Of a stretch of 64,000 nucleotides of DNA, positions 3,692 through 46,384 are shown piece after piece. The translations under genes and the position numbers were made by a program. The stretch comes from Pristiophorus japonicus. Its lineage: Eukaryota. The DNA is taken from positions 36,456,001 through 36,520,000 of the forward strand of contig NC_091998.1 of assembly GCF_044704955.1 (NCBI RefSeq). Reading direction: 5' to 3'. Position 1 is the first letter of the stretch; each line of letters begins with the position of its first letter. Under the pieces are notes generated by a model. It was not told where the DNA came from, made no database searches, and was given only the letters and a program-made list of their open reading frames with translations.

Positions 3692-3945
3692 TAAAAGCAA
3701 GACTTGCATTTATATAGCGCCTTTCATGACTTCAGGACGCCTCAAAGATCTTCACAATGAAGTATTTTTGAAGTGTGGTCACTGATGTAATGTAGGAAAC
3801 ACAGCAGCCAATTTGCGCACAGCAAGCTCCCACAAACAGCAATATGATAATTGGTTTTTAGTGATGGTGGTTGAGGGATAAATATTGGCCAGGACACCGG
3901 GGATAAAACTTGGTTTAATATCTCATCTGAGTTATGGCACCTCAG
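3692..3945 (-). mobile_element. Deu-domain SINE (SacSINE1/AmnSINE1-like), 3' part
   Basis: GCATTTATATAGCGCCTTT tail and CAGCCAATTTGCGCACAGCAAG core, repeated at 7893, 25275 and 52600. Confidence 0.8.
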
Positions 3946-4600
3946 ACTGTGCAGCACTCCCTCAGTCCTGCCCCTCCGACAGTGCGGCGCTCCCTCAGTA
4001 CTGCCCCTCCGACAGTGCGGCACTCCCTCAGTACTGCCCCTCCGACAGTGCGGCGCTCCCTCAGTACTGCCCCTCCGACAGTGCGGCACTCCCTCAGTAC
4101 TGCCCCTCCGACAGTGCGGCACTCCCTCAGTACTGCCCCTCCGACAGTACGGCACTCCCTCAGTATTGCCCCTCCGACAGTGCGGCACTCCCTCAGTACT
4201 GCCCCTCCGACAGTGCGGCACTCCCTCAGTACTGCCCCTCCGACAGTGCGGGGCTCCCTCAGTACTGCCCCTCCGACAGTGCGGCACTCCCTCAGTACTG
4301 CCCCTCCGACAGTGCGGCGCTCCCTCAGTACTGCCCCTCCGACAGTGCGGCACTCCCTCAGTACTGCCCCTCCGAACTGCGGCACTCCCTCAGTACTGCC
4401 CCTCCGACAGTGCGGCGCTCCCTCAGTATTGCCCCTCCGACAGTGCGGCACTCCCTCAGTACTGCCCCTCCGACAGTGCGGCACTCCCTCAGTACTGCCC
4501 CTCCGACAGTGCGGCACTCCCTCAGTACTGCCCCTCCGACAGTGCGGCACTCCCTCAGTACTGCCCCTCCGACAGTGCGGCACTCCCTCAGTACTGCACT
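3940..4600. repeat. 33-bp minisatellite (~20 copies) expanded from the SINE body
   Basis: Unit CAGTACTGCCCCTCCGACAGTGCGGCACTCCCT; single-copy form visible in the SINE at ~25585-25625. Confidence 0.95.
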
Positions 4601-8254: not shown

Positions 8255-10400
8255 CACAAACGATTTGGACTCGGGAATCGGAAGTACAACTTCAAAATTT
8301 GCGCATGACACCAAATTTTGGGTAGGGGTGGGATAGTTAACACAGAGGAAGACTGCGACAAAATACAAGACATTAATAAACTTGCATGCAATTGGCCAGT
8401 GAGCTTCAGTATCTATCAGTGCGAGGTAATACATGTTGGTTGGAAGAATAAGGAGACCACAAACGCCTTGGAAAATAAATGTGGCAACAGAGCAGAGGAA
8501 CAGGACTCCGGGGCACAGATACACACATCACTAGAAGTAACAACGCAGGTTAACAAGGCCATAAAAAGCAAACACAGCACTGGGTCATTTACAGAATTGA
8601 AAAACAGAGAAGTTATGTTAAACTTGTACAAAACCTTAGTTAGACCACACTTGGAGTACTGTGAACAGTTCTGGTCTCCATGTTATAAAAAGGATACAGA
8701 GGCACTGGAGAAACATAGAAAGAGAAAATAGGTGCAGGAGTAGGCCATTCGGCCCTTCGAGCCTGCACCGCCACTCAATAAGATCATGGCTGATCATTCC
8801 TTCAGTACCCCTTTCCTGCTTTCTCTCCATACCCCTTGATCCCCTTAACCGTAAGGGCCATATCTAACTCCCTCTTGAATATATCCAATGAACTGGCATC
8901 AACAACTCTCTGCGGCAGGGAATTCCACAGGTCAACAACTCTCTGAGTGAAAAAGTTTCTCCTCATCTCAGTCCTAAATGGCCTACCCCTTATCCAAAGA
9001 CTATGTTCCCTGGTTCTGGACTTCCCCAACATCGAGAACATTCTTCCCGTATCAAACCTGTCCAGTCCCGTCAGAATCTTAAATGTTTCTATGAGATCCT
9101 CTCTCATCCTTCTAAACCCCAGTGAATAAAGGCCCAGTTGATCCAGTCTCGCCTCATATGACAGCCCAGCCATCCCTGGAATCAGTCTGGTGAACCTTCG
9201 CTGCACTCCCTCAATAGCAAGAACGTCCTTCCTCAGATTAGGAGACCAAAACTGAACACAATATTCCAGGTGAGGCTTCACTAAGGCCCTGTACAACTGC
9301 AGTAAGACCTCCCTGTTCCTATATTCAAATCCCCTAGCTATGAAGGCCAACATACCATTTGCCTTCTTTACCGCTTGCTGTACCTGCGTTCCCACTTTCA
9401 GTGACTGATGAACCATGACACCCAGGTCTCGTTGCACTCCCCCTCTTTTCTAGACTGCTGCCATTCAGATAATATTCTGCCTTTGCGTTCCCGCCCCCAA
9501 AATGGACAACCCCACATCCATCCACACCATACTGCATCAGCCATGCACCTGCCCACCCACTCAATCTGTCCAAGTCACCCTGCAGCCTCCCAGCGTCCTC
9601 CCCACAGCTCACACCACCACCCAGTCCAGTGTCATCCGCAAACCTGGAGACACTACACTCCATTCCCTCATCCAAATCGTCAATGTACATTGCAAAGAGC
9701 TGGGGTCCCAGCACTGAGCCCCGTGGCACCCTACCAGCAACTGCCCGCCACTCTGAAAAGGACCCGTCCATCCCTACTCTCTGCCCCTGCCCGCCAACCA
9801 GCCCACCACTCACGCCAGAACACCACCCCCAATACCATGCGCCCCGATCTCGCTCACCAATCTCCTGTGTGGGACCCCACCAAAAGTCCTCCGAAAGTCC
9901 AAATACACCACATCCACTGGTCCTCCCCCGTCCACCCCACCAGCCACATCCCCAAAAAATTCCAGAAGATTCGTCAAGAAGGTGCAACAATAGTTACTAG
10001 GATGATAGCAGAACTGAGGTTTATACCCATTAGGAAAGATTGAACAGCCTGGGGCCCTTTTCTCGGGAAAGGGGAAGACTGAGGGGTGAGCCGATAGAGG
10101 TCTTCAAGATGATGAAAGGGTAGATGTCGAGAAAATGTTTCCACTTGTGGGGGAGTCCAAAACTAGAGCTCATCCACATATGTCAGTAATAAATCCAATG
10201 GGGAATTCAGGAGAAACTTCTTCACCCATGAGAGCGGTGAGAATGTGGAACTCACTGCCACAGGAAGGGGTTGAGGTGAGTAGCACAGATACATTTAAGG
10301 GGAAGCTGGATAAACTTACGAGGGGGAAAAGGAGGAGCTTGTGGAGCATAAACACCGGCACGGACCAATCGGGCCGAATGGCCTGTTTCTGTGCTGTACA
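8255..10400 (+). mobile_element. Old CR1 3' fragment split by a younger CR1 insertion (halves 8255-8712 and 9977-10400)
   Basis: GGCACTGGAGAA and AGAAGGTGCAA rejoin as ALEKVQ; AGAA duplicated at both junctions. Confidence 0.8.
8713..9976 (-). mobile_element. 5'-truncated CR1 insertion; 3' part normal, 5' ~490 bp A-to-G hypermutated
   Basis: ORF 8802..9437 nearly identical to the ORF2 C-terminus of other copies; ORF 9334..9990 is RT core with Gly/Arg/Ala/Asp substitutions. Confidence 0.92.
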
Positions 10401-11764: not shown

Positions 11765-12665
11765 TTGAGCGCATCCAAAACACGGCTGCCCGTGTCCTAA
11801 CTCGCACCGAGTCCCGCTCACCCATCACCCCCCTGCGCTCGCTGACCCGTGTCCTAACTCGCACCGAGTCCCGCTCACCCATCACCCCCCTGCGCTCGCT
11901 GACCTGTGTCCTAACTCGCACCGAGTCCCGCTCACCCATCACCCCCTGCGCTCGCTGACCCGTGTCCTAACTCGCACCGAGTCCCGCTCACCCATCACCC
12001 CCTGCGCTCGCTGACCCGTGTCCTAACTCGCACCGAGTCCCGCTCACCCATCACCCCTGCGCTCGCTGACCCGTGTCCTAACTCGCACCCAGTCCCGCTC
12101 ACCCATCACCCCCTGCGCTCGCTGACCCGTGTCCTAACTCGCACCGAGTCCCGCTCACCCATCACCCCCTGCGCTCGCTGACCCGTGTCCTAACTCGCAC
12201 CGAGTCCCGCTCACCCATCACCCCCTGTGCTCGCTGACTCATATCCTAACTCGCACCGAGACCCGCTCACCTATCACCCCCTGTGCTCACTGCCCCGAGT
12301 GCTAACTCGCACCGAATCCCGCTGACCCATCACCCCCTGCACTCACTGACCTACATTGGCTCCCGGTTAATCAACGCCTCGATTTCAAAATTCTCATCCT
12401 TGTTTTAAAATCCCTCCATGGCCTCACCCCTCCCTATTTCTGTGATCTCCTCCAGCCCTACAACTCTCCGAGATGTCTGTGCTCCTTCAATCTGGCCTCT
12501 TGAGCATCCCCAATTTCCATCACTTCGTCATCGGTGGCCGTGCCTTCAGCTACCTGGGCCCTAAGCTCTGGAACTCCCTCCTTAAACCTCTCTGCCTCTC
12601 TACCTTTCTTCCTTTAAGATGCTCCTTAAAACTTACCTCTTTGACCAGACTTTTGGTCACCTGCC
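11765..12665 (+). mobile_element. L2 LINE 3' fragment containing a 55-57 bp tandem array (~10 copies, 11789-12350)
   Basis: IQNTAARVLTRT...SPITP...LHWLPV and GGRAFSYLGPKLWNSL motifs; unit CCCGTGTCCTAACTCGCACCGAGTCCCGCTCACCCATCACCCCCTGCGCTCGCTGA. Confidence 0.88.
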
Positions 12666-14352: not shown

Positions 14353-16935
14353 TTACAGACCTCCAAACAGTAGTAGTGATGTTGGGGAGGGCATCAAACA
14401 GGAAATTAGGGGTGCATGCAATAAAGGTGCAGCAGTTATAATGGGTGACTTTAATATGCACATAGATTGGGCTAACCAAACTGGAAGCAATACGGTGGAG
14501 GAGGATTTCCTGGAGTGCATAAGGGATGGTTTTCTAGACCAATATGTCGAGGAACCAACTAGGGGGGAGGCCATCTTAGACTGGGTGTTGTGTAATGAGA
14601 GAGAATTAATTAGCAATCTCATTGTGCGAGGCCCCTTGGGGAAGAGTGACCATAATATGGTGGAATTCTGCATTTGGATGGAGAATGAAATAGTTAATTC
14701 AGAGACCATGGTCCAGAACTTAAAGAAGGGTAACTTTGAAGGTATGAGGCGTGAATTGGCGAGGATAGATTGGCGAATGATACTTAAGGGGTTGACTGTG
14801 GATGGGCAATGGCAGACATTTAGAGACCGTATGGATGAATTACAACAATTGTACATTCCTGTCTGGCGTAAAAATAAAAAAGGGAAGGTGGCTCAACCGT
14901 GGCTATCTAGGGAAATCAGGGATAGTATTAAAGCCAAGGAAGTGGCATACAAATTGGCCAGAAATAGCAGTGAACCCGGGGACTGGGAGAAATTTAGAAC
15001 TCAGCAGAGGAGGACGAAGGGTTTGATTAGGGCAGGGAAAATGGAGTACGAGAAGAAGCTTGCAGGGAACATTAAGGCGGATTGCAAAAGTTTCTATAGG
15101 TATGTAAAGAGAAAAAGGTTAGTAAAGACAAACATAGGTCCCCTGCAGTCAGAATCAGGGGAAGTCATAACGGGGAACAAAGAAATGGCAGACCAATTGA
15201 ACAAGTACTTTGGTTCGGTATTCACTAAGGAGGACACAAACAACCTTCCGGATATAAAAGGGGTCAGAGGGTCTAGTAAGGAGGAGGAACTGACGGAAAT
15301 CTTTATTAGTCTGGAAATTGTGTTGGGGAAATTGATGGGATTGAAGGCCGATAAATCCCCAGGGCCTGATGGACTGCATCCCAGAGTACTTAAGGAGGTG
15401 GCCTTGGAAATAGCGGATGCATTGACAGTCATTTTCCAACATTCCATTGACTCTGGATCAGTTCCTATCGAGTGGAGGGTAGCCAATGTAACCCCACTTT
15501 TTATAAAAGGAGGGAGAGAGAAAACAGGGAATTATAGACCGGTCAGCCTGACCTCAGTAGTGGGTAAAATGATGGAATCAATTATTAAGGATGTCATCGC
15601 AGCGCATTTGGAAAATGGTGACATGATGGGTCCAAGTCAGCATGGATTTGTGAAAGGGAAATCATGCTTGACAAATCTTCTGGAATTTTTTGAGGATGTT
15701 TCCAGTAAAGTGGACAAAGGAGAACCAGTTGATGTGGTATATTTGGACTTTCAGAAGGCTATCGACAAGGTCCCACACAAGAGATTAATGTGCAAAGTTA
15801 AAGCACATGGGATTGGGGGTTGTGTGCTGACGTGGATTGAGAACTGGTTGTCAGACAGGAAGCAAAGAGTAGGAGTAAATGGATACTTTTCAGAATGGCA
15901 GGCAGTGACCAGTGGGGTACTGCAAGGTTCTGTGCTGGGGCCCCAGCTGTTTACATTGTACATTAATGATTTAGACGAGGGGATTAAATGTAGTATCTCC
16001 AAATTTGCGGATGACACTAAGTTGGGTGGCAGTGTGAGCTGCGAGGAGGATGCTATGAGGCTGCAGAGTGACTTGGATAGGTTAGGTGAGTGGGCAAATG
16101 CATGGCAGATGAAGTATAATGTGGATAAATGTGAGGTTATCCATTTTGGTGGTAAAAACAGAGAGACAGACTATTATCTGAATGGTGACAGATTAGGAAA
16201 AGGGAAGGTGCAACGAGACCTGGGTGTCATGGTACATCAGTCATTGAAGGTTGGCATGCAGGTACAGCAGGCGGTTAAGAAAGCAAATGGCATGTTGGCC
16301 TTCATAGCGAGGGGATTTGAGTACAGGGGCAGGGAGGTGTTGCTACAGTTGTACAGGGCCTTGGTGAGGCCACACCTGGAGTATTGTGTACAGTTTTGGT
16401 CTCCTAACTTGAGGAAGGACATTCTTGCTATTGAGGGAGTGCAGCGAAGATTCACCAGACTGATTCGTGGGATGGTGGGACTGACCTATCAAGAAAGAGT
16501 GGATCAACTGGGCTTGTATTCACTGGAGTTCAGAAGAATGAGAGGGGACCTCATAGAAACATTTAAAATTCTGACAGGTTTAGACAGGTTCGATGCAGGA
16601 AGAATGTTCCCAATGTTGGGGAAGTCCAGAACCAGGGGTCACGGTCCAAGGATAAGGGGTAAGCCATTTAGGACTGAGATGAGGAGGAACTTCTTCACCC
16701 AGAGAGTGGTGAACCTGTGGAATTCTCTACCACAGAAAGTAGTTGAGGCCAATTCACTAAATATATTCAAAAGGGAGTTAGATGAAGTCCTTACTACTAG
16801 GGAGATCAAGGGGTATGGCGAGAAAGCAGGAATGGGGTACTGAAGTTTCATGTTCAGCCATGAACTCATTGAATGGCGGTGCGGGCTAGAAGGGCTGAAT
16901 GGCCTGCTCCTGCACCTATTTTCTATGTTTCTATG
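14353..16935 (+). mobile_element. Young 5'-truncated CR1
   Basis: Uninterrupted 800-aa ORF and (TTTCTATG)n tail. Confidence 0.95.
14441..16843 (+). CDS. CR1 ORF2 (C-terminal part of APE endonuclease + reverse transcriptase), N-terminally truncated
   Basis: MGDFN, SDHNM, QGSVLGP and FADD motifs; no stops. Confidence 0.9.
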   Translation: MGDFNMHIDWANQTGSNTVEEDFLECIRDGFLDQYVEEPTRGEAILDWVLCNERELISNLIVRGPLGKSDHNMVEFCIWMENEIVNSETMVQNLKKGNFEGMRRELARIDWRMILKGLTVDGQWQTFRDRMDELQQLYIPVWRKNKKGKVAQPWLSREIRDSIKAKEVAYKLARNSSEPGDWEKFRTQQRRTKGLIRAGKMEYEKKLAGNIKADCKSFYRYVKRKRLVKTNIGPLQSESGEVITGNKEMADQLNKYFGSVFTKEDTNNLPDIKGVRGSSKEEELTEIFISLEIVLGKLMGLKADKSPGPDGLHPRVLKEVALEIADALTVIFQHSIDSGSVPIEWRVANVTPLFIKGGREKTGNYRPVSLTSVVGKMMESIIKDVIAAHLENGDMMGPSQHGFVKGKSCLTNLLEFFEDVSSKVDKGEPVDVVYLDFQKAIDKVPHKRLMCKVKAHGIGGCVLTWIENWLSDRKQRVGVNGYFSEWQAVTSGVLQGSVLGPQLFTLYINDLDEGIKCSISKFADDTKLGGSVSCEEDAMRLQSDLDRLGEWANAWQMKYNVDKCEVIHFGGKNRETDYYLNGDRLGKGKVQRDLGVMVHQSLKVGMQVQQAVKKANGMLAFIARGFEYRGREVLLQLYRALVRPHLEYCVQFWSPNLRKDILAIEGVQRRFTRLIRGMVGLTYQERVDQLGLYSLEFRRMRGDLIETFKILTGLDRFDAGRMFPMLGKSRTRGHGPRIRGKPFRTEMRRNFFTQRVVNLWNSLPQKVVEANSLNIFKRELDEVLTTREIKGYGEKAGMGY

Positions 16936-19517
16936 ATACTTTTAGTGTCTTCTACTGTGAAGACTGATACAAAATATTTGTTCAAAGTCTCTGCCATTTC
17001 CCTGTTCCCCATTATTAATTCCCCAGTCTCATCCGCTAAGGGACCAATGTTTACTTTACTCACTCTTTTCTTTTTTATATACCTGTAGAAGCTCTTACTG
17101 TCTGTTTTAATATTTCTTGCTAGTTTACTCTGATAAACTAGCTTCTCTCTCGTTATTATTGTTTTAGTCGTCCTTTGCTTGTTTCTAAAGATTTCTCAAT
17201 CCTCTGGCCTACCACTAGTCTTAGCAACATTGTATGCCTTTGTTTTCAATTTGATACCATCCTTTACTTCCTTAGTTAGCCACGGATGGTTCATCTTAAA
17301 GGCTTTCTTTCTTACTGGAATTTATCTTTGTTGAGAGTTATGAAATATCTCCTTAAATGGCTGCCACTGTTTATCTATCGTCTTACCCTTTAATATACTT
17401 TCCCAGTCCACTTTAAGCAGCTCTGCCTTCATACCTTTTGTAATTACCTTTATTTAAGTTCAGGACACTAGTTTGAGACCCAAGTTTCTCACCTCAAACT
17501 GAATTTGAAATTCTCCCATGCTATGACCATTCTTCACGATAGGATCCTTCACTACGAGATCATTAATTTATCCAGACTTGTTACACATTACCAGATCTAA
17601 AATAGTCTGCTCCCTGGTTGGCTCCACAAAGTATTGTTATAAGAAACCAATCCGCATACACTCTATGAACTCGTCCTCAAGGCTACCTTTGTCAATTTGA
17701 TTTGTCCAATCAATATGAAGATTAAAATCGCCCATGATTATTGCTTTATGTTTCTTACAAGCCCCCATTATTTCTTGTCTCTATACTCTGTCGTACAGTG
17801 TAGCGACTGTAATGGGGCCTATAGACTGCGCCCACCAGTGGCTCCTTTCCCTTACTATTTCTTATTTCCACACAAACTTATTCTACATCTTGATCTTCTG
17901 AGCCAATATCACCTCTTACTATTGCACTGATCTCACCCCTTACTAACAGAGCTACCCCACCACCTTTTCCTTTCTGCCTGTCCTTCCGAAATGTCAAATA
18001 GCCCTGAATATTCAGTTCTCAGCCTTGGTCACCTTGCAGTCATGTTTCTGTAACGGCTATCAGATCATACCCATTTATTTCTATTTGTGCCGTCAACTCA
18101 TTGATCTTGTTACGAATGCTGCGTGCATTCAGATAAAGAGCTTTTAAATTTATCTTTTTACCCTTTTTCCCTGCTCTCACTCTACTTCCTAGTGCACTCT
18201 TATGTTTATACGCTCTGTCCCTTCCTGTCATCCTCTGGTATCATTACCCCCATCGTTACCCTGCACGATTACCTGCCCCTTTCTCCTTTCTCTTTGTCTT
18301 TTAAATTTCCCCTCACCTGAACTCCCCCCCCCCGCCCCCCCATTATTTAGTTTTAAACCCTCTCTACAGCCCGAGTTATTTGATTCGGCAGGACACTAGT
18401 CCCAGCCTGGTTCAAGTGAAGCCCGTCCCAAAGGAACTGCTCCCTCTTATCCCAGTACTGGTGCCAGTGCCCCATGAATCAAAACCCATTTCTCCCTGAC
18501 CAATCTTTGAGCCACGTGTTTAACTCTCTGATCTTATTTACCCGATGCAAATTTGCTCGTGGTTCAGGTAGTAATCCAGAGATTATTACCTTTGTGGTTC
18601 TGCTTTTTAATTTAGCCCTAGCTGCTCACACTCCCTCAGCAGAACCTCTTTCTTTGTCCCACCTGTCGTTGGTACCCACGTGGACCACGACAACTGGATC
18701 TTCCCCCTCCCACTCCAACTTCCTCTCCAGCCCAGAGGAGATGTCCTTAACCCTGGCACTGGGCAGGCAACACAGCCTTTGGGACTCATGCTCTCGGCTG
18801 CAGAGAACTTTATCTATCCCCCACTACTACTACATTTCTTTTTACTCCCCCCACTTGAATGGCCCCTGTACCACGGTGCTGTGGTCAGTTTGCTCATCCT
18901 CCCTGCAGTCCCTGCTCTCGTCTACACAGGGAGCAAGAGCCTCGAACCTGTTGGACAAGAGCAAGGGCTGAGGCTCCTCCATCACTACCTCCTGGGTCCC
19001 CATACCTGCCTCACTCGTAGTCATATCCTTCTGTCCCTGACCACGGACCAAATTTGAATGAATTAAACTAAGGAGTGTGACTGCCTCCTGGAACACAGTG
19101 TCCAGGTAACTCTCCCCCTCCCTGATGTGTCGCAGTGCCTGAAGCTCGGACCCCAGCTCATCAACACGAAGCCGAAGTTCCTTGAGCCGCCAACACTTGC
19201 TGCAGGTGTGGTCGCCGTGGATCACACTGGTGTCCAGCAGCTCCCACACGCTGCATCTGCAACACATCACCCACCCCGCCATCTCTAGTGTATTTTAGTT
19301 AATGAATTAGGTTGTCAAGTTTTGAAATGTCACATTTTCTATGTATAGTTTTAAAATCTGTAATCGCGGCTCTTAATTTAAACCGATGCCCAAGTTTAGA
19401 AAAAGAGAGCAATACTCACCAACCAATCACTTACCTGCTTTCCTGTGACATCACATTTTGTTTTTTTTTCTCTCCCCTCACAGGTCCGTTCGCTCTTCTC
19501 CCAGCGAGTTCTTTTAT

Positions 19518-20101: not shown

Positions 20102-23100
20102 TGTTCTAGTAACGACTCCACGAGGCAGTGTGTTGTACTTGAACTGTAGTGACCTTAGTCCTTTATTCGTTAACTCCAGAGTGAGGATCACACCTGGTGG
20201 CCTGCCTTTTATACTAGGCCAGGCACACCTGTGCAGGTAACCTACAAGTCTCTCACTGCTGTGCCCCCTGATGGCACACCTTGAGATAGTACCAACAGTA
20301 GCCATGTAGGATACATGACATCACTCTCCCCTGAGCCTTTAGTGCAAATCGCCTCTGCATTGACTGTGCTCTGGGCTTAGCGCTATGTGGGCTCTTGGCG
20401 GGTCGTTTCAATCTTGGGTGAGTGGTTGGTGCAGTAGAGTGCTGGTGGTTGCTGTTTGTGTGTGTCCCTGACTACTCCATTCTCGCCCCCGCCCTCCCCC
20501 CACATATAGATTATGTCGGAGGCTCATAACATTCATATACATTCAAGTTCAGGGAAAATGTTACATTTGTGGTTCCGTTGTGAGACAAGTACGTTAGACT
20601 AGTGAGATACCGTATCGATGCAGTGACCAGTGCGTGAGGACAAGCTAGTTCCAGAACTGCTGGATTGTGTCCCTGCAGTCTGGTGGTGGCTCAGTGCCCA
20701 GTGCTGGCAGTGGGAGCCCGGTTGGCTCGAGGTGCCTGCTCTCGGGGCTCTTGCCGTGGTCCCTAGCGTCGGGCCGGTTCACAGATGCCTGTGACCTCCC
20801 TGTCCTTTCTTTGTGCCCTGGGTCGCTGCTGCTTCCTGAGGAGCTGTCGTCTAGCAGTGCACAGGGAACTGCTGACTCGCTGGCCTGAGCGTCGCTTGGT
20901 TTGAGATCCTGACTGGTCCCGGTCCCCTTTGGGGGAACTGTTGCGGGTGACCCTTCGTTTCCGGGTATGGCTTTGGTGGCGATGGGGTCTGGGGGCTGTG
21001 CCTTAGCACCGTCTGCCCCTTCAGGCTCGTGGCAGTTGGTGCCATCGGGTGCCTGAGAGGTGGAGCCGATCAGAGGCAGGGTATCGATACCGGTGCCGTT
21101 GCCCTGCTGAGATTGCTTGCTCTGCAGCTCGTGTGTGTTGGCTGCTTGTGGCCACACTCCATGGTGCATGACTCTGGTCCCTGGGATGCAGGCTACAGCA
21201 TTGGGTAGCTCGCCGGACCTGTGTGCTCCCGATGGGTGTCTGCATGCAGTTGAAACCCTGCATCACACAACTTTTCCTTACTTATGATGGACACTCTGTG
21301 GGTCCGACCGCGATTGCGCGACTTTTCCTCACTGGGTGCATGTACACAATTCAGATTATTAATTACACATTTTACATGTTTTGTCTCTGACTTACAAATA
21401 CTATTACATTGTTTAATTGTATGGAACTGTCCCTTTAATTGTAGTGGATTGCAGGCCTCCTTTAAGAGAGCCTTGCTTTCTTTACCCCAATCCGCTTCTC
21501 CGTTTGGTGCCACGTGTTGCTCCATCAGCGCTGCACCTCGTGGTCTGGCCGCGGCCATCTTTTTCTTCAGCACCTCACCTCGTGGTTTGGGTGCCATCTT
21601 TCTTCCATCCACGACTGGGAGAAATTTAGAATTCAGCAGAGGAGGACAAAGGGTTTAATTAGGAAGGGGAAAATAGAGTTATGAGAGGAAGCTTGCTGGG
21701 AACATAAAAACTGACTGCAAAAGATATGTGAAGAGAAAAAGATTAGCGAAGACAAACGTAGGTCCCTTGCAGTCAGAATCAGGTGAGTTTATAATGTGGA
21801 ACAAAGAAATGGCAGACCAATTGAACAAATACTTTGGTTCTGTCTTCACAAAGGAAGGCACAAATAACCTTGCAGAAATACTAGGGGACCGAGGGTCTAG
21901 CGAGAAGGAGGAACTGAAGGAAATCCTTATTAGTCAGGAAATTGTGTTAGGGAAATTGATGGGATTGAAGGCCAATAAATCCCCAGGGCCTGATAGGCTG
22001 CATCCCAGAGTTTTTAAGGAAGTGGCCCTAGAAATAGTGGATGCATTGGTGATCATTTTCCAACAGTCTATCGACTCTGGATCAGTTCCTATGGATTGGA
22101 GGGTAGCTAATGTAACACCACTTTTTAAAAAAGGAGGGAGAGAGAAAATGGGGAATTATAGACCGGTTAGCCTGACATCAGTAGTGGGGAAAATGTTGGA
22201 ATCAATTATGAAAGATGAAATAACAGCGCATTTGGAAAGCAGTGACAGGATTGGTCCAAGTCAGCATGGATTTATGAAAGGGAAATCATGCTTGACAAAT
22301 CTTCTAGAATTTTTTGAGGATGTAACTAGTAGAGTGGACAAGTGAGAATCAGTGGATGTGGTGTATTTGGATTTTCAAAAGGCTTTTGACAAGGTCCCAC
22401 ACAAGAGATTAGTGTGCAAAATTAAAGCACATGGTATTGGGGGCAATGTATTGACGTGGATAGAGAACTGGTTGGCAGACAGGAAGCAGAGAGTCGGGAT
22501 AAACGGGTCCTTCTCAGAATGGCAGACAGTGACTAGTGGGGTGTCGCAGGGCTCAGTGCTGGGACCCCAGCTATTTACAATATACATCAATGATTTAGAT
22601 GAAGGAATTGAGTGTAATATCTCCAAGTTTGCATGAAGCTGGGTGGCGGTGTGAGCTGTGAGGTGGATGCTAAGAGGCTGCAGGATGACTTGGACAGGTT
22701 AGGTGAGTGGGCAAATGCATGGCAGATGCAGTATAATGTGGATAAATGTGAGGTTATCCACTTTGGTGGCAAAAACATGAAGGCAGAATATTATCTGAAT
22801 GGCAGCAGATTTGGAAAAGGGGAGGTGCAACGACTCCTGGGTGTCATGGTACATCAGTCATTGAAAGTTGGCATGCAGGTACAGCAGGCGGTGAAGAAGG
22901 CAAATGGCATGTTGGCCTTCATAGATAGGGGATTTGAGTATAGGAACAGGGAGGTCTTAATGCAGTTGTACAGGGCCTTGGTGAGGCCTCACCTGGAATA
23001 TTGTGTTCAGTTTTGTTCTCCTAATCTGAGGAAGGACATTCTTGCTATTGAGGGAGTGCAGCGAAGGTTCACCAGACTGATTCCAGGGATTGCAGGACTG

Positions 23101-25262
23101 ACATATGAGGAGAGACTGGATCAACTGGGTCTTTATACACTGGATGAGAGGGGATCTCACAGAAACATATAAAATTCTGATGGGACTGGACAGGTTAGAT
23201 GCAGGAAGAGTGTTCCCGATGTTGGGAAAGTCCAGAACCAGGGGACATAGTCTAAGGATAAGAGGTAAGCCATTTAGGACTGAGATGAGGAGAAACTTCT
23301 TCACTCTGAGAGTTGTTAACCTGTGGAATTCTCTACCGCAGAGAGTTGTTGATGCCAGTTCATTGGATATATTCAAGAGGGAGATAGATATGGCCCTTAT
23401 AGCTAAAGGGATCAAGGAGTATGGAGGGAAAGCAGGAAAGGGGTACTGAGGGAATGATCAGCCATGATCTTATTGAATGGCGGTGCAGGCTCAAAGGGCC
23501 GAATGGCCTACTCCTGCACCTATTTTCTATGTTTCTATATTTCTATGTTTCTGCCTCCGAAGCTGGGAAGTCGCCTCTGGATCCGATTTTCTCCCTCCGG
23601 AGTCCTGCCACTGGAGCCTGGAAGGTGCGTTCGGGTCGTCTCAGCTGGATCATCTCCACGCAGTCGTGCTGAGCGGTCTGTGCCTCGGGTGCTGTGCTGG
23701 TCTGCTCTCCGGTGTCTGGTCCACTCTCAGGTGAGGGCTTGCTTTGTCTCTGAGCGCAAAGGGCTTCGATCGCTGGAGGGGTGAAGTCTTCCCATTTTTT
23801 ATGGATCTTGGTCCATCACCTGCAACAATCCACAGAGGTAACTTGTGTACCGCACCATCATGGAGTACCTTTACATTCACACTACCAACGATTGGGATGA
23901 TTTCATTGGTGTAGATGTGCAGCCTACATGAACCGGGACCAACTTGGGTCATTCAGCTTGATTGTCCCATAGGCTCTCAAAGGCTGCTTATCACTGACTG
24001 GCTCACCCCCGTGTCCACTTCCATGAAGACTGGAACACCATCTATCTCGACTTCCATCTTCAGCGGGGAACACTCGGTGTTGCAAGTAAACATACTATGT
24101 ACCTCCCTGTGGGGCTGGGCTGTCTCTCTGACTATCGTTTCATAATCCGCGCTGGATTCATGGCCATCTGCAGACTCTTCATCAACAAAGTGAGTCATAT
24201 TTCTATTACACATTCGCTGGAGGTGGCCCTTTGTGCTGCAGCCTTTGCACACATAGTCTTTAAAATGGCACTGGTGAACCCTGTGATTCCCTCCGCAACA
24301 CCAGCATGGTGCTACACGATTAGCCCCCCTCAGCGGACTCTGAGTTAAGGGACTCGGGCCTGTTCTCTCTTCCCTGAGAGGATTCGCGCTCTACAGTCCA
24401 GCTCCTGAACGGCACCACTCTGTGCACAGTACCTGCCGGGTTTGAGTCCTGAAGGTGAGACATCTGCCTAGAGCCGCAGGTCGAGGTCATGAATGACTGG
24501 CTCACAGAGATGGCCTTCTGCAGGGTGACTGGTATCCACCGATGGTAGCTTGTGAAGAAGGCCCTCGTGGCCAATTCCAGTGACAAAAATGTCCCGCAGC
24601 GCTTCGTTGAGGTGGGTGCCGAACTCGCGCGGTGCCGCCAGCCTCCTGAGGTCTGCGGGGTACTTCGCGATTTCCTGGCCTTCGGGCTGTCGGTGGGTAT
24701 AGAACCCGTCTCTGGCTGTGAGGATGCTCTCCTTGGGCTTGAGTTGCTCCTGGATCAGGGTTACGAGCTCCTTGTATGTCTTGGTCGTTGTCTTCGCTGG
24801 TGCCAACAAGTTCCTGACGAGGCCATAGACGTTGGGCCGACAACTGGTTCGCAGGACAGTGCGGCGCTTATCAGCCAGTGCGGCCGGGTCGTCTCCTGCC
24901 AGGTCATTTGCTGTGAAGAAATGTTCCAGTCTCTCGACAAAGGCGTCCCAATCATCACCATCGGTGATCTGCTGCAATGTACCAAGGGTAGCCATTTTCA
25001 CGTGAAAGTTCGCAATCCCGTTGCCAGTTGTTGTGTCCTTAGATGCTCTAACAATGACTCCATGAGGCAGTGTGTTGTACTTGAACTGTAGTGACCTTAG
25101 TCCTTTATTTGTTAACTCCAGAGTGAGGATTACACCTGGTGGCTTGCCTTTTATACTAGGCCTGGCACACCTGTACAGGTAACCTACAAGTCTCCCACTG
25201 CTGTGCCCTCTGGTGGCACATCTTGAGATAGTACCAACAGTAGCCATGTAGGATACATGACA
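20102..25262 (-). mobile_element. Non-autonomous Gypsy (Mag-like) element: LTRs 20102-20320 and 25029-25262, gag + protease only, TSD CTTTG
   Basis: Matching LTRs; PBS-like TGGCAACGGG; PPT at 20321; gag WDAFVERLEHFF..ND, protease EVDTGVSQS; CTTTG at 20097-20101 and 25263-25267. Confidence 0.88.
21612..23551 (+). mobile_element. 5'-truncated CR1 nested in the Gypsy element
   Basis: RT ORF pieces 21728-23449 and CTATGTTT tail. Confidence 0.92.
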
Positions 25263-43119: not shown

Positions 43120-45868
43120 ATGAGGAAAAGTGGAGGGCAGAGAAACCCAAGGCAAAGAACAAAAATGACCACTGTACAGCAAAATTCTAAAAGGACAAAG
43201 GGTGTTAAAAAAACAAGCCTGAAGGCTTTGTGTCTTAATGCAAGGAGTATCCGCAATAAGGTGGATGAATTAACTGTGCAAATAGATGTTAACAAATATG
43301 ATGTGATTGGGATTACGGAGACGTGGCTCCAGGATGATCAGGGCTGGGAACTCAACATCCAGGGGTATTCAACATTCAGGAAAGATAGAATAAAAGGAAA
43401 AGGAGGTGGGGTAGCATTGCTGGTTAAGGAGCAAATTAAGGCAATAGTTCGGAAGGACATTAGCTTGGATGATGTGGAATCTATATGGGTAGAGCTGCAG
43501 AATACCAAAGGGCAAAAAACGTTAGTGGGAGTTGTGTACAGACCTCCAAACAGTAGTAGTGATGTTGGGGAGGGCATCAAACATGAATAAAGGTGCAGCA
43601 GTTATAATGGGTGACTTTAATATGCACATAGATTGGGTTAACCAAACTGGAAGCAATACGGTGGAGGAGGATTTCCTGGAGTGCATAAGGGATGGTTTTT
43701 TAGACCAATATGTCGATGAACCAACTAGGGGGGAGGCCATCTTAGACTGGGTGTTGTGTAATGAGAGAGGATTAATTAGCAATCTTGTTGTGCGAGGCCC
43801 CTTGGGGAAGAGTGACCATAATATGGTGGAATTCTGCATTAGGATGGAGAATGAAACAGTTAATTCAGAGACCATGGTCCAGAACTTAAAGAAGGGTAAC
43901 TTTGAAGGTATGAGGCGTGAATTGGCTAGGATAGATTGGCGAATGATACTGAAGGGGTTGACTGTGGATGGGCAATGGCAGACATTTAGAGACCGCATGG
44001 ATGAACTACAACAATTGTACATTCCTGTCTGGCGTAAAAATAAAAAAGGGAAGGTGGCTCAACCGTGGCTATCAAGGGAAATCAAGGATAGCATTAAAGC
44101 CAAGGAAGTGGCATACAAATTGGCCAGAAATAGCAGCGAACCCGGGGACTGGGAGAAATTTAGAACTCAGCAGAGGAGGACAAAGGGTTTGATTAGGGCA
44201 GGGAAAATGGAATACGAGAAGAAGCTTGCAGGGAACATTAAGACGGATTGCAAAAGTTTCTATAGATATGTAAAGAGAAAAAGGTTAGTAAAGACAAACG
44301 TAGGTCCCCTGCAGTCAGAATCAGGGGAAGTCATAACGGGGAACAAAGAAATGGCGGACCAATTGAACAAGTACTTTGGTTCGGTATTCACTGAGGAGGA
44401 CACAAACAACCTTCCGGATATAAAAGGGGTCGGAGGGTCTAGTAAGGAGGAGGAACTGAGGGAAATCCTTATTAGTCGGGAAATTGTGTTGGGGAAATTG
44501 ATGGGATTGAAGGCCGATAAATCCCCAGGGCCTGATGGACTGCATCCCAGAGTACTTAAGGAGGTGGCCTTGGAAATAGTGGATGCATTGACAGTCATTT
44601 TCCAACATTCCATTGACTCTGGATCAGTTCCTATGGAGTGGAGGGTAGCCAATGTAACCCCACTTTTTAAAAAAGGAGGGAGAGAGAAAACACGGAATTA
44701 TAGACCGGTCAGCCTGACATCGGTAGTGGGTAAAATGATGGAATCAATTATTAAGGATGTCATAGCAGTGCATTTGGAAAGAGGTGACATGATAGGTCCA
44801 AGTCAGCATGGATTTGTGAAAGGGAAATCATGCTTGACAAATCTTCTGGAATTTTTTGAGGATGTTTCCAGTAGAGTGGACAAGGGAGAACCAGTTGATG
44901 TGGTATATTTGGACTTTCAGAAGGCTTTCGACAAGGTCCCACACAAGAGATTAATGTGCAAAGTTAAAGCACATGGGATTGGGGGTAGTGTGCTGACATG
45001 GATTGAGAACTGGTTGTCAGACAGGAAGCAAAGAGTAGGAGTAAATGGGTACTTTTCAGAATGGCAGGCAGTGACTAGTGGGGTACCGCAAGGTTCTGTG
45101 CTGGGGCCACAGCTGTTTACACTGTACATTAATGATTTAGACGAGGGGATTAAATGTAGTATCTCCAAATTTGCGGATGACACTAAGTTCGGTGGCAGTG
45201 TGAGCTGCGAGGAGGATGCTATGAGGCTGCAGAGTGACTTGGATAGGTTAGGTGAGTGGGCAAATGCATGGCAGATGAAGTATAATGTGGATAAATGTGA
45301 GGTTATCCACTTTGGTGGTAAAAACAGAGAGACAGACTATTATCTGAATGGTGACAGATTAGGAAAAGGGGAGGTGCAAAGAGACCTGGGTGTCATGGTA
45401 CATCAGTCATTGAAGGTTGGCATGCAGGTACAGCAGGCGGTTAAGAAAGCAAATGGCATGTTGGCCTTCATAGCGAGGGGATTTGAGTACAGGGGCAGGG
45501 AGGTGTTGCTACAATTGTACAGGGCCTTGGTGAGGCCACACCTGGAGTATTGTGTACAGTTTTGGTCTCCTAACCTGAGGAAGGACATTCTTGCTATTGA
45601 GGGAGTGCAGCGAAGGTTCACCAGACTGATTCCCGGGATGGCGGGACTGACCTATCAAGAAAGACTGGATCAACTGGGCTTGTATTCACTGGAGTTCAGA
45701 AGAATGAGAGGGGACCTCATAGAAACGTTTAAAATTCTGACGGGGTTAGACAGGTTAGATGCAGGAAGAATGTTCCCAATGTTGGGGAAGTCCAGAACCA
45801 GGGGACACAGTCTAAGGATAAGGGGTAAGCCATTTAGGACCGAGATGAGGAGGAATTTCTTCACATAG
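43120..45868 (+). pseudogene. CR1 ORF2 (APE endonuclease + RT) in two frames
   Basis: NARS, ITETW, YRPP in 43120..43590; GDFN through FADD in 43532..45868. Confidence 0.88.
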
Positions 45869-46384
45869 AGAGTGGTGAACCTGTGGAATTCTCTACCACA
45901 GAAATTTGTTGAGGCCAATTCACTAAATATATTCAAAAAGGAGTTAGATGAAGTCCTTACTACTAGGGGAATCAAGGGGTATGGTGAGAAAGCAGGAATG
46001 GGGTACTGAAGTTGCATGTTCAGCCATGAACTCATTGAATGGCGGTGCAGGCTAGAAGGGCCGAATGGCCTACTCCTGCACCTATTTTCTATGTTTCTAT
46101 GTTTCTAACTGCGTGTCCCGCTGGGCTGTCTCAGAGGGCAGTTAACAGTCAACCACGTTGCTGTGGGTCTGGAGTCACATATGGGCCAGACCGGGTAAGA
46201 GCAGCAGGTTTACATCCCTAAAGGACATTAGTGAACCAGCTGGGTTTTTACAACAGTTTCATGGTCACCATTACTGATACTAGCTTTTTAATGAACTGAG
46301 TTTAATTCCCCAGCTGCTGTGTTGGGATTTTAACTCATGCTTCCGGATCATCAGTCCAGGCCTCTGGATTACTGGTCCAATAAC

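What the first reader, a model, noticed from the sequence alone, without database searches (positions are those of the whole stretch)
9485..9976. CR1 insertion with a dense, strand-specific A-to-G hypermutated 5' block: probable ADAR-edited RNA fixed in the genome
Seen: against the sister CR1 at 22290-22800, the sense (minus) strand of this block differs mostly by A>G. Examples: GATGTAACTAGTAGAGTGGACAAG becomes GATGTGGCTGGTGGGGTGGACGGG, and TATAATGTGGATAAATGTGAGGTTATC becomes TATGGTGTGGATGGATGTGGGGTTGTC. My manual count is roughly 60-70 A>G in ~490 nt, close to half the As, giving K>G, N>G/D, Q>R, T>A, I>V/M changes. The 3' part (8713-9480) is normal, and the block ends at the 5' truncation point with unedited host beyond. 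As after G often survive (GATGAC). Established: ADAR deaminates A to I in dsRNA, disfavours a 5' G, and RT reads I as G; APOBEC3 editing gives G>A instead. Inference: a hyperedited LINE RNA served as the TPRT template in the germline.
Basis: partly seen in the sequence, partly recalled or inferred. Interest (0 to 1): 0.82.

Follow-up and report, generated by a model that had tools for sequence, protein, structure and literature searches.

The report
RNA-edited retrotransposons written into the genome
This jumping-gene copy has about half of the A's in one stretch changed to G, likely because the RNA-editing enzyme ADAR altered its RNA before it was copied into the chromosome; dozens of other copies in the same genome carry the same mark, and one marked copy likely founded a family of about 900.

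Summary
Against 29 close relatives the block has 63 of 135 sense-strand A changed to G, the 3' part 2 of 203 (p=1e-27). Other changes are at background. The 5' neighbour follows ADAR's order; in 16 other copies U .75, A .64, C .36, G .21. No other copy matches the block above 87%, and read-derived contigs carry 14 of the edits exactly. I found at least 46 independent hyperedited events genome-wide. Two motif scans gave 39 sense A>G hits against 4 mirror hits. Three of those 4 are inverted pieces edited on the strand that reads into a downstream sense CR1 3' end, so the edits follow the template RNA. An evenly spaced sample gave 1 edited copy in 128. One hyperedited, internally deleted copy with a minisatellite head founded a family of at least 902 copies; none of 100 listed is unedited. 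Best reading: ADAR edited CR1 double-stranded RNA, and CR1 reverse transcriptase fixed it in the germline (0.88). Ten literature searches found the APOBEC G>A counterpart but no report of this.

The parts
8713..9976 (-). 5'-truncated CR1-like LINE insertion: RT-coding 3' part, 3' UTR and tail
   Evidence: 85% to 22291-23544; RT motifs in translation; close relative L038 hits Pfam RVT_1 at E=1.4e-11
9486..9952 (-). A>G hyperedited tract, 63 sites
   Evidence: exact read contigs over 9460-9589
8713..9484 (-). unedited 3' part (2 of 203 A>G; 16 of 754 columns differ, about 2%)
   Evidence: 94-95% to the closest copies
8709..8729 (-). 3' microsatellite tail of the (TTTCTATG)n type, ending in the 4 bases shared with the target
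   Evidence: sequence
8709..8712 (+). AGAA: left copy of the 4-bp target duplication or microhomology
   Evidence: host flanks join with no loss when projected on 5 relatives
9977..9980 (+). AGAA: right copy at the 5' junction; 2 nt also match the element
8400..8712 (+). older LINE that received the insertion, left half, opposite orientation
9977..10300 (+). older LINE, right half, unedited
21613..23544 (+). unedited sister CR1 copy used as comparator
   Evidence: A>G 11, T>C 10

Best explanation
This is a 5'-truncated CR1-like LINE copy whose A>G tract was likely made by ADAR deaminating A to inosine in a double-stranded stretch of the template RNA, and likely fixed when the CR1 reverse transcriptase read inosine as G during insertion in the germline. 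Shown: the tract, its strand, its sequence context, its confinement to the insertion, and its recurrence in at least 46 independent events. Also shown: inverted CR1 pieces edited on the strand that reads into a sense 3' end, and a family of at least 902 copies sharing one edited core. Inferred: ADAR as the enzyme; pairing with antisense CR1 RNA from read-through transcripts as the duplex (about 60%); mobilisation by CR1 protein that recognises the largely spared 3' end, in trans or made before editing; a single edited founder for the family.
For: Spectrum: in tracts of 16 other copies A>G is 1308 of 2904, A>C 17, A>T 22, T>C 34. Context at -1 is U .75, A .64, C .36, G .21; best triplet UAG .81, worst GAU .09. 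Two motif-picked sets, motif columns excluded, repeat it: U .75/.71, A .67/.73, C .46/.43, G .27/.29. PMC8586724 (passages) gives 5' A/U/C as favoured and 5' G as disfavoured. Strand: sense patterns gave 14 and 25 hits, and all 37 non-self loci show A>G excess. Mirror patterns gave 1 and 3. L175, L258 and L257 are inverted pieces upstream of a sense 3' end. L186 carries 1.6 kb of antisense CR1 with 134/355 A>G on the read strand, -1 U 49/82 and G 7/45. The evenly spaced sample gave an edited copy of another subfamily with the same context (L113). Family core: 79/117 and 49/72 A>G against 8 and 7 other changes; 902 junction matches. The genome has six A_deamin loci, with ADAR1-like and ADAR2-like exons.
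Against: No RNA was examined, so editing of CR1 transcripts in this organism is not shown. PMC5224506 and PMC8677026 (passages) found no editing of transfected human L1 RNA by ADAR1 or ADAR2 with Sanger sequencing. PMC2873906 (passages) found no excess of A-to-G clusters in human or Xenopus DNA traces. Mirror hit L259 (9 T>C in 104 nt) has no adjacent sense 3' end and is unexplained. In L258 the sense part complementary to the edited inverted piece is itself unedited, which does not fit a simple intramolecular hairpin. In the focal copy alone the +1 G preference is not significant (p=0.70). Exact read support is listed for only 130 of the block's 490 nt, possibly from the assembly's own sample.
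Confidence: 0.88

Rival explanations
1. The CR1 reverse transcriptase itself sometimes misreads template A in bursts, through nucleotide-pool imbalance or DGR-like adenine-directed mutagenesis.
For: It would give the same strand rule (edits on the read strand, stopping at insertion ends) and tract-like bursts.
Against: A>C and A>T stay at background (17 and 22 against 1308 A>G), whereas DGR mutagenesis gives A-to-N (recalled). Sites without G at +1 are still edited at 0.36-0.54, so slippage onto a neighbouring G does not explain it. The -1 order is ADAR's.
Confidence: 0.05
2. Adenines were deaminated in DNA, either in the cDNA or an R-loop during insertion or later in place (ADAR on hybrids, or an unknown deaminase).
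For: ADARs can act on the DNA strand of RNA:DNA hybrids in vitro (recalled, no call).
Against: Deamination of first-strand cDNA would read as T>C on the sense strand, the opposite of what is seen (39 against 4 hits). In-place editing would not stop at junctions, yet host flanks are unedited. In L175, L186, L257 and L258 edits follow the read strand whatever the CR1 orientation.
Confidence: 0.04
3. The tract is a sequencing or assembly artefact.
For: Listed exact read contigs cover only 9460-9589; 9736-9879 has little or no cover in run X1; X1 may be the assembly's own sample.
Against: Exact 70- and 90-nt contigs at depth 15, like the flanks. The mark follows element orientation on both chromosome strands. 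It carries later decay mutations and is shared by 902 dispersed copies.
Confidence: 0.02
4. The block belongs to an ordinary G-rich CR1 subfamily or a recombinant with one.
For: A G-rich family with shared Gs does exist in this genome.
Against: The focal block has no match above 87% among 40 scored hits and shares at most 4 of its 27 other derived changes with any copy. Edits ignore codon position. The G-rich family covers other parts of CR1 and itself shows the editing spectrum.
Confidence: 0.01

Closest known systems
APOBEC 'DNA editing' of genomic retroelements (PMC4866542; PMC3880073; Carmi 2011, seen only as a citation)
   Same: A host deaminase acts during one retrotransposition cycle and leaves a heritable, strand-specific cluster of one transition in a minority of copies (lizard L1 0.26%, PMC3880073 passage).
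   Different: There it is C>U on cDNA, read as sense G>A, mostly in LTR elements and not found in lizard CR1. Here it is sense A>G with ADAR context in a CR1-like LINE, so it points to RNA editing before reverse transcription. 'ADAR' occurs 0 times in the main text of both papers.
ADAR A-to-G hypermutation of retroviruses (RAV-1, avian leukosis virus, HTLV-2/STLV-3 in culture; PMC8586724 passage)
   Same: Inosine-containing RNA is reverse transcribed into A>G-rich DNA with 5' G avoidance.
   Different: Those are exogenous viruses in infected or cultured cells. Here the edits are inherited, recur in dozens of independent insertions, and founded a family.
A-to-I hyperediting of inverted repeats in transcriptomes (Alu and others; PMC2873906 passages)
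   Same: Same chemistry and context; inverted repeat copies are the likely duplex.
   Different: Those edits stay in RNA; that study saw no such excess in DNA traces.
ADAR1/ADAR2 restriction of human L1 (PMC5224506, PMC8677026 passages)
   Same: ADAR binds LINE RNA-protein particles.
   Different: Reported as editing-independent, with no edits found. The copies here suggest editing does reach mobilised LINE RNA, at low frequency.
VNTR composite retrotransposons SVA and LAVA (abstract listings)
   Same: The 902-copy family is a non-coding composite with a minisatellite, foreign pieces and a retroelement 3' end, often truncated at the 5' side.
   Different: It has a CR1 tail, a 37-38-bp unit at the 5' side and an edited core. 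It is unrelated in origin; abstracts describe those families as hominoid-specific.

Membership tests
ADAR hyperediting signature | Dense A>G with other changes at background | tested here: met
   63/135 focal; 1308/2904 in other copies, A>C 17, A>T 22
ADAR hyperediting signature | 5' neighbour U, A over C over G; G depleted | tested here: met
ADAR hyperediting signature | 3' neighbour G favoured | tested here: inconclusive
   pooled others 0.53 for G, p=9e-8; focal alone p=0.70
ADAR hyperediting signature | Edits on the RNA strand | tested here: met
   39 sense hits against 4 mirror hits, 3 of them inverted pieces
ADAR hyperediting signature | Double-stranded RNA substrate identified | tested here: inconclusive
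   antisense CR1 RNA is captured and edited (L175, L186, L257, L258); the focal copy's partner and donor locus are unknown
ADAR hyperediting signature | Inosine in RNA; dependence on ADAR activity | not testable with these tools
   needs RNA data or an assay; ADAR-like genes are present
APOBEC DNA editing | Sense-strand G>A clusters | tested here: not met
   G>A 6 of 152 in the block
CR1 clade LINE | RT and AP-endonuclease in ORF2 | tested here: met
   RVT_1 E=1.4e-11 on L038; Exo_endo_phos only weak, E=0.023 and below cut-off, on L080
CR1 clade LINE | 3' short tandem-repeat tail, 5' truncation, little or no target duplication (recalled features) | tested here: met
CR1 clade LINE | RT groups with CR1 rather than L2 in a tree | not tested
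Diversity-generating retroelement mutagenesis | A-to-N (all three bases) changes | tested here: not met
Non-autonomous retroposed family (the 902-copy family) | Dispersed copies with their own flanks and tails, shared diagnostic structure, variable 5' truncation | tested here: met
   30 aligned copies, 2.3% divergence, G>A-dominated; 6 long copies end inside the minisatellite with unrelated flanks

The most novel reading that the evidence does not exclude
ADAR editing is a heritable germline mutagen of LINEs in this genome. Hundreds to thousands of CR1 copies are fossils of edited double-stranded RNA, including captured antisense strands. One hyperedited copy became the master of a new composite retrotransposon family of about 900 copies or more, so RNA editing directly created a new mobile element.
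Probability: 0.75. Interest if true: 0.88.

Novelty: new variant of a known kind. Interest (0 to 1): 0.82.

Why it matters
A-to-I editing is treated as confined to RNA, and cell assays say ADAR restricts LINEs without editing them. Here the edits appear to be inherited, which makes this an RNA-to-DNA route for mass mutation and the ADAR counterpart of APOBEC-edited retroviruses. The copies are a datable record of germline ADAR activity, its sequence preference and the extent of the duplexes it met, in a lineage with no such data. They make testable whether edited LINE RNA is mobilised and whether editing shortens insertions. The 902-copy family suggests editing can spawn a new element. Screens built on G>A or on ordinary alignment would miss these copies or file them as separate subfamilies.

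Tried and rejected
No RNA holder was listed for the stretch, so expression is untested. Relative depths of runs X5 and X6 in edited bins were not used, because the tool says contig depth cannot rank places and their library type is unknown. A local hairpin with the receiving LINE was rejected: it is about 64% alike and matches only the unedited 3' part. Above-chance sharing of Gs between the focal copy and the hits was not taken as common descent, since those hits were selected for likeness and share context preferences. Of 20 hits fetched, 15 were edited, L068 was ambiguous and dropped, and 4 were unedited. L186-188 and L199/200 were each counted once as duplicates. Window 16942-18170 (A>G 30, G>A 29) is not edited. 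The link between editing and 5' truncation is mixed: 5' end within about 100 nt of motif 1 in 6 of 13 edited against 3 of 46 sampled copies (p=0.002), but 5 of 17 against 4 of 44 for motif 2 (p=0.10); it is left as a lead. No convincing target duplications were found for family copies and no common 5' end. No A>G or T>C cluster was found outside CR1 in 307 kb of assessable sample. The focal block's 55-aa open piece hit no Pfam family. Three look-ups of earlier findings were empty. Carmi 2011 is not held.

Full report
THE OBSERVATION. The window holds a minus-strand LINE fragment at 8713-9976, 81-85% identical to three plus-strand sisters. Aligned to them, the 5' block differs mainly by sense-strand A>G: 71 of 141 against the 22291 copy, and 58 of 120 where all three agree. 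For a fairer yardstick I took the 29 genomic copies closest to the unedited 3' part and counted against the column majority. The block has 63 of 135 A changed to G, with G>A 6, A>T 3, C>T 2 and A>C 0; the 3' part has 2 of 203 (p=1e-27). The tract runs from 9952 to 9486. Edits are even across codon positions, as expected of a single mutagenic event. An A after G is edited in 12 of 38 cases, other As in 48 of 84 (p=0.011).

ANATOMY. The copy is 5'-truncated inside the RT domain (motifs; RVT_1 on relative L038) and ends in a short (TTTCTATG)-type tail. It sits in opposite orientation inside an older LINE. Projected on five relatives, the two host halves join with no loss, and AGAA lies at both 8709-8712 and 9977-9980. 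The host is unedited. The 3' part differs from its yardstick at 16 of 754 columns, so the insertion is old enough to have drifted and is inherited, not somatic (inference).

NOT AN ARTEFACT, NOT A SUBFAMILY. Contigs from DNA run X1 match 9460-9529 and 9500-9589 with no difference at depth about 15, similar to the flanks, and cover 14 edited sites. Most records were not listed, the rest of the block lacks long exact pieces in the list, and X1 may be the assembly's sample. Among 40 scored hits in the 5.9-Gb genome the block's best other match is 87%.

A GENOME-WIDE CLASS. Of the 20 best non-self hits fetched, 15 carry their own A>G tracts with different boundaries, up to 193 A>G against 6 T>C; one was ambiguous and 4 were unedited. 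None of the other 58 copies picked with unedited queries had a tract. Pooled over those 15 and the ambiguous one, A>G is 1308 of 2904 and A>C and A>T are 17 and 22. The -1 neighbour gives U .75, A .64, C .36, G .21 (p=2e-78 for G); UAG is edited at .81 and GAU at .09. This matches the ADAR preference stated in PMC8586724 (passages). Exact-pattern scans count the whole genome. A motif with four fixed A>G gave 14 hits including this one, against 63,504 for the unedited motif. A second motif with three fixed A>G gave 25. All 37 non-self loci show A>G excess, and the context repeats with motif columns excluded. After merging duplicates I count 44 independent events, plus L113 and L175, so at least 46 (list; L257 and L258 came later and are not counted). 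Tracts reach about 3 kb. In 80 evenly spaced 10-kb stretches, 1 of 128 assessable CR1 copies was hyperedited (L113, an older subfamily, same context), 95% interval 0.02-4.3%. Two of the 15 copies reappeared among the 13 motif-1 hits, which suggests about 100 or more edited copies at that one site (my rough estimate, biased low). Editing falls from 0.25-0.31 of As in the body to 0.03 in the last 60 columns. That fits a need for an intact 3' end, though ascertainment contributes.

THE STRAND RULE. Mirror patterns (fixed T>C at the same places) gave 1 and 3 hits. L175 is an inverted CR1 piece joined directly to a sense 3' end, with 55 T>C on CR1 sense, which is A>G on the strand that reads into the tail. 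L258 is similar (52 against 1), but its downstream sense copy is unedited. L257 is similar with a foreign piece between. L259 is a short old fragment I could not explain. Separately, L186 carries 1.6 kb of antisense CR1 of another subfamily abutting its 5' end, with 134 of 355 A>G on the read strand and ADAR context. So edits follow the template RNA, not the element's orientation, and antisense CR1 RNA was both edited and captured. L196 and L198 share one tandem junction but have 31 and 19 Gs at 78 sites, 14 in common, which suggests one donor edited twice.

A FAMILY FOUNDED BY AN EDITED COPY. Five motif-2 hits on different chromosomes agreed at 93-100% of A/G states. A search with one returned 39 other full-length matches at 92-95%. 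The 30 aligned copies share a structure: a 37-38-bp minisatellite, an unedited piece of another repeat, the start of CR1 ORF2, an internal deletion, the CR1 3' end, and each copy's own tail and flanks. Against unedited parents the ORF2-start part has 79 of 117 A>G with 8 other changes, and the 3' part 49 of 72 with 7 others; As after U are edited in 11/11 and 13/13. A degenerate junction pattern accepting A or G gave 902 matches. Of the first 100 listed, 86 are identical in the edited form and none is the all-A form. Copies differ by 2.3%, mostly G>A. A single edited founder re-mobilised in trans is the simplest reading. L209 shows fresh A>G in its minisatellite, a probable second round (by eye).

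MECHANISM. Shown: pattern, strand, context, recurrence and confinement to insertions. Inferred: in a genome where assessable CR1 alone made 135 of 800 kb sampled, sense and antisense CR1 RNA pair; ADAR converts many As to inosine; CR1 protein recognises the 3' end and copies the RNA, reading inosine as G. The genome has six A_deamin loci, with exons best matching ADAR1 and ADAR2 structures. Rivals are weaker. RT error should give other A changes or a +1 G rule. Deamination of cDNA gives the wrong strand. In-place editing should cross junctions. Whether editing promotes truncation is open (p=0.002 at one motif, 0.10 at the other).

WHAT IS KNOWN. I read passages, not whole texts or supplements, of PMC4866542, PMC3880073, PMC2873906, PMC5224506, PMC8677026 and PMC8586724. 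The first three describe APOBEC G>A editing of genomic retroelements. The next two report that ADARs bind L1 but found no edits. The last lists ADAR hypermutation of avian retroviruses. Ten searches listed no report of ADAR-edited LINE copies fixed in a genome or of a family founded by one. I saw only listings and abstract openings for most results. The library lacks most subscription papers, including Carmi 2011, and supplements of the APOBEC screens may tabulate A>G controls that I did not see.

VERDICT. Real and correctly read by the first stage. It is one example of a genome-wide class and a new variant of deaminase-edited retroelements. Confidence in ADAR followed by reverse transcription 0.88; interest 0.82.

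Noticed in passing
G000-wide; L201-L230, e.g. L202, L184:1248-2100: Composite non-coding family of at least 902 copies: minisatellite, repeat piece, hyperedited CR1 ORF2 start, deletion, hyperedited CR1 3' end and tail.
   Followed up: yes
L175:1094-1697; L239 (extends L186); L258:1400-1751; L257:1247-2235: Inverted CR1 pieces edited A>G on the strand that reads into a downstream sense CR1 3' end.
   Followed up: yes
L259:1345-1542: Short old CR1 fragment with a T>C cluster (9 in 104 nt) and no adjacent sense 3' end; unexplained exception.
   Followed up: partly
L196 and L198, around 1250-1650: Same tandem junction of two CR1 subfamilies, differently edited; one donor locus possibly edited twice.
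   Followed up: partly
L209, 5' end of the family copy: Its minisatellite shows fresh A>G changes, a probable second round of editing.
   Followed up: partly
L113:5541-6400: Hyperedited copy of an older CR1 subfamily (64 of 244 A>G), found in the evenly spaced sample.
   Followed up: yes
L257:254-1007: A further sense A>G-rich copy of another subfamily (75 A>G, 12 T>C against a distant yardstick) right beside an edited inverted piece.
   Followed up: no
window 14354-16935 and 43537-46101: Two CR1 copies of a younger subfamily, 96% identical over 2.6 kb, both unedited.
   Followed up: partly
window 3937-4597, 52926-53490 and 11785-12351: Tandem arrays (about 33/66-bp and 56-bp periods); the first two are related to each other but lack the motif of the family's minisatellite.
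   Followed up: no
window 16942-18170: Old LINE fragment with A>G 30 but G>A 29; not taken as edited.
   Followed up: yes
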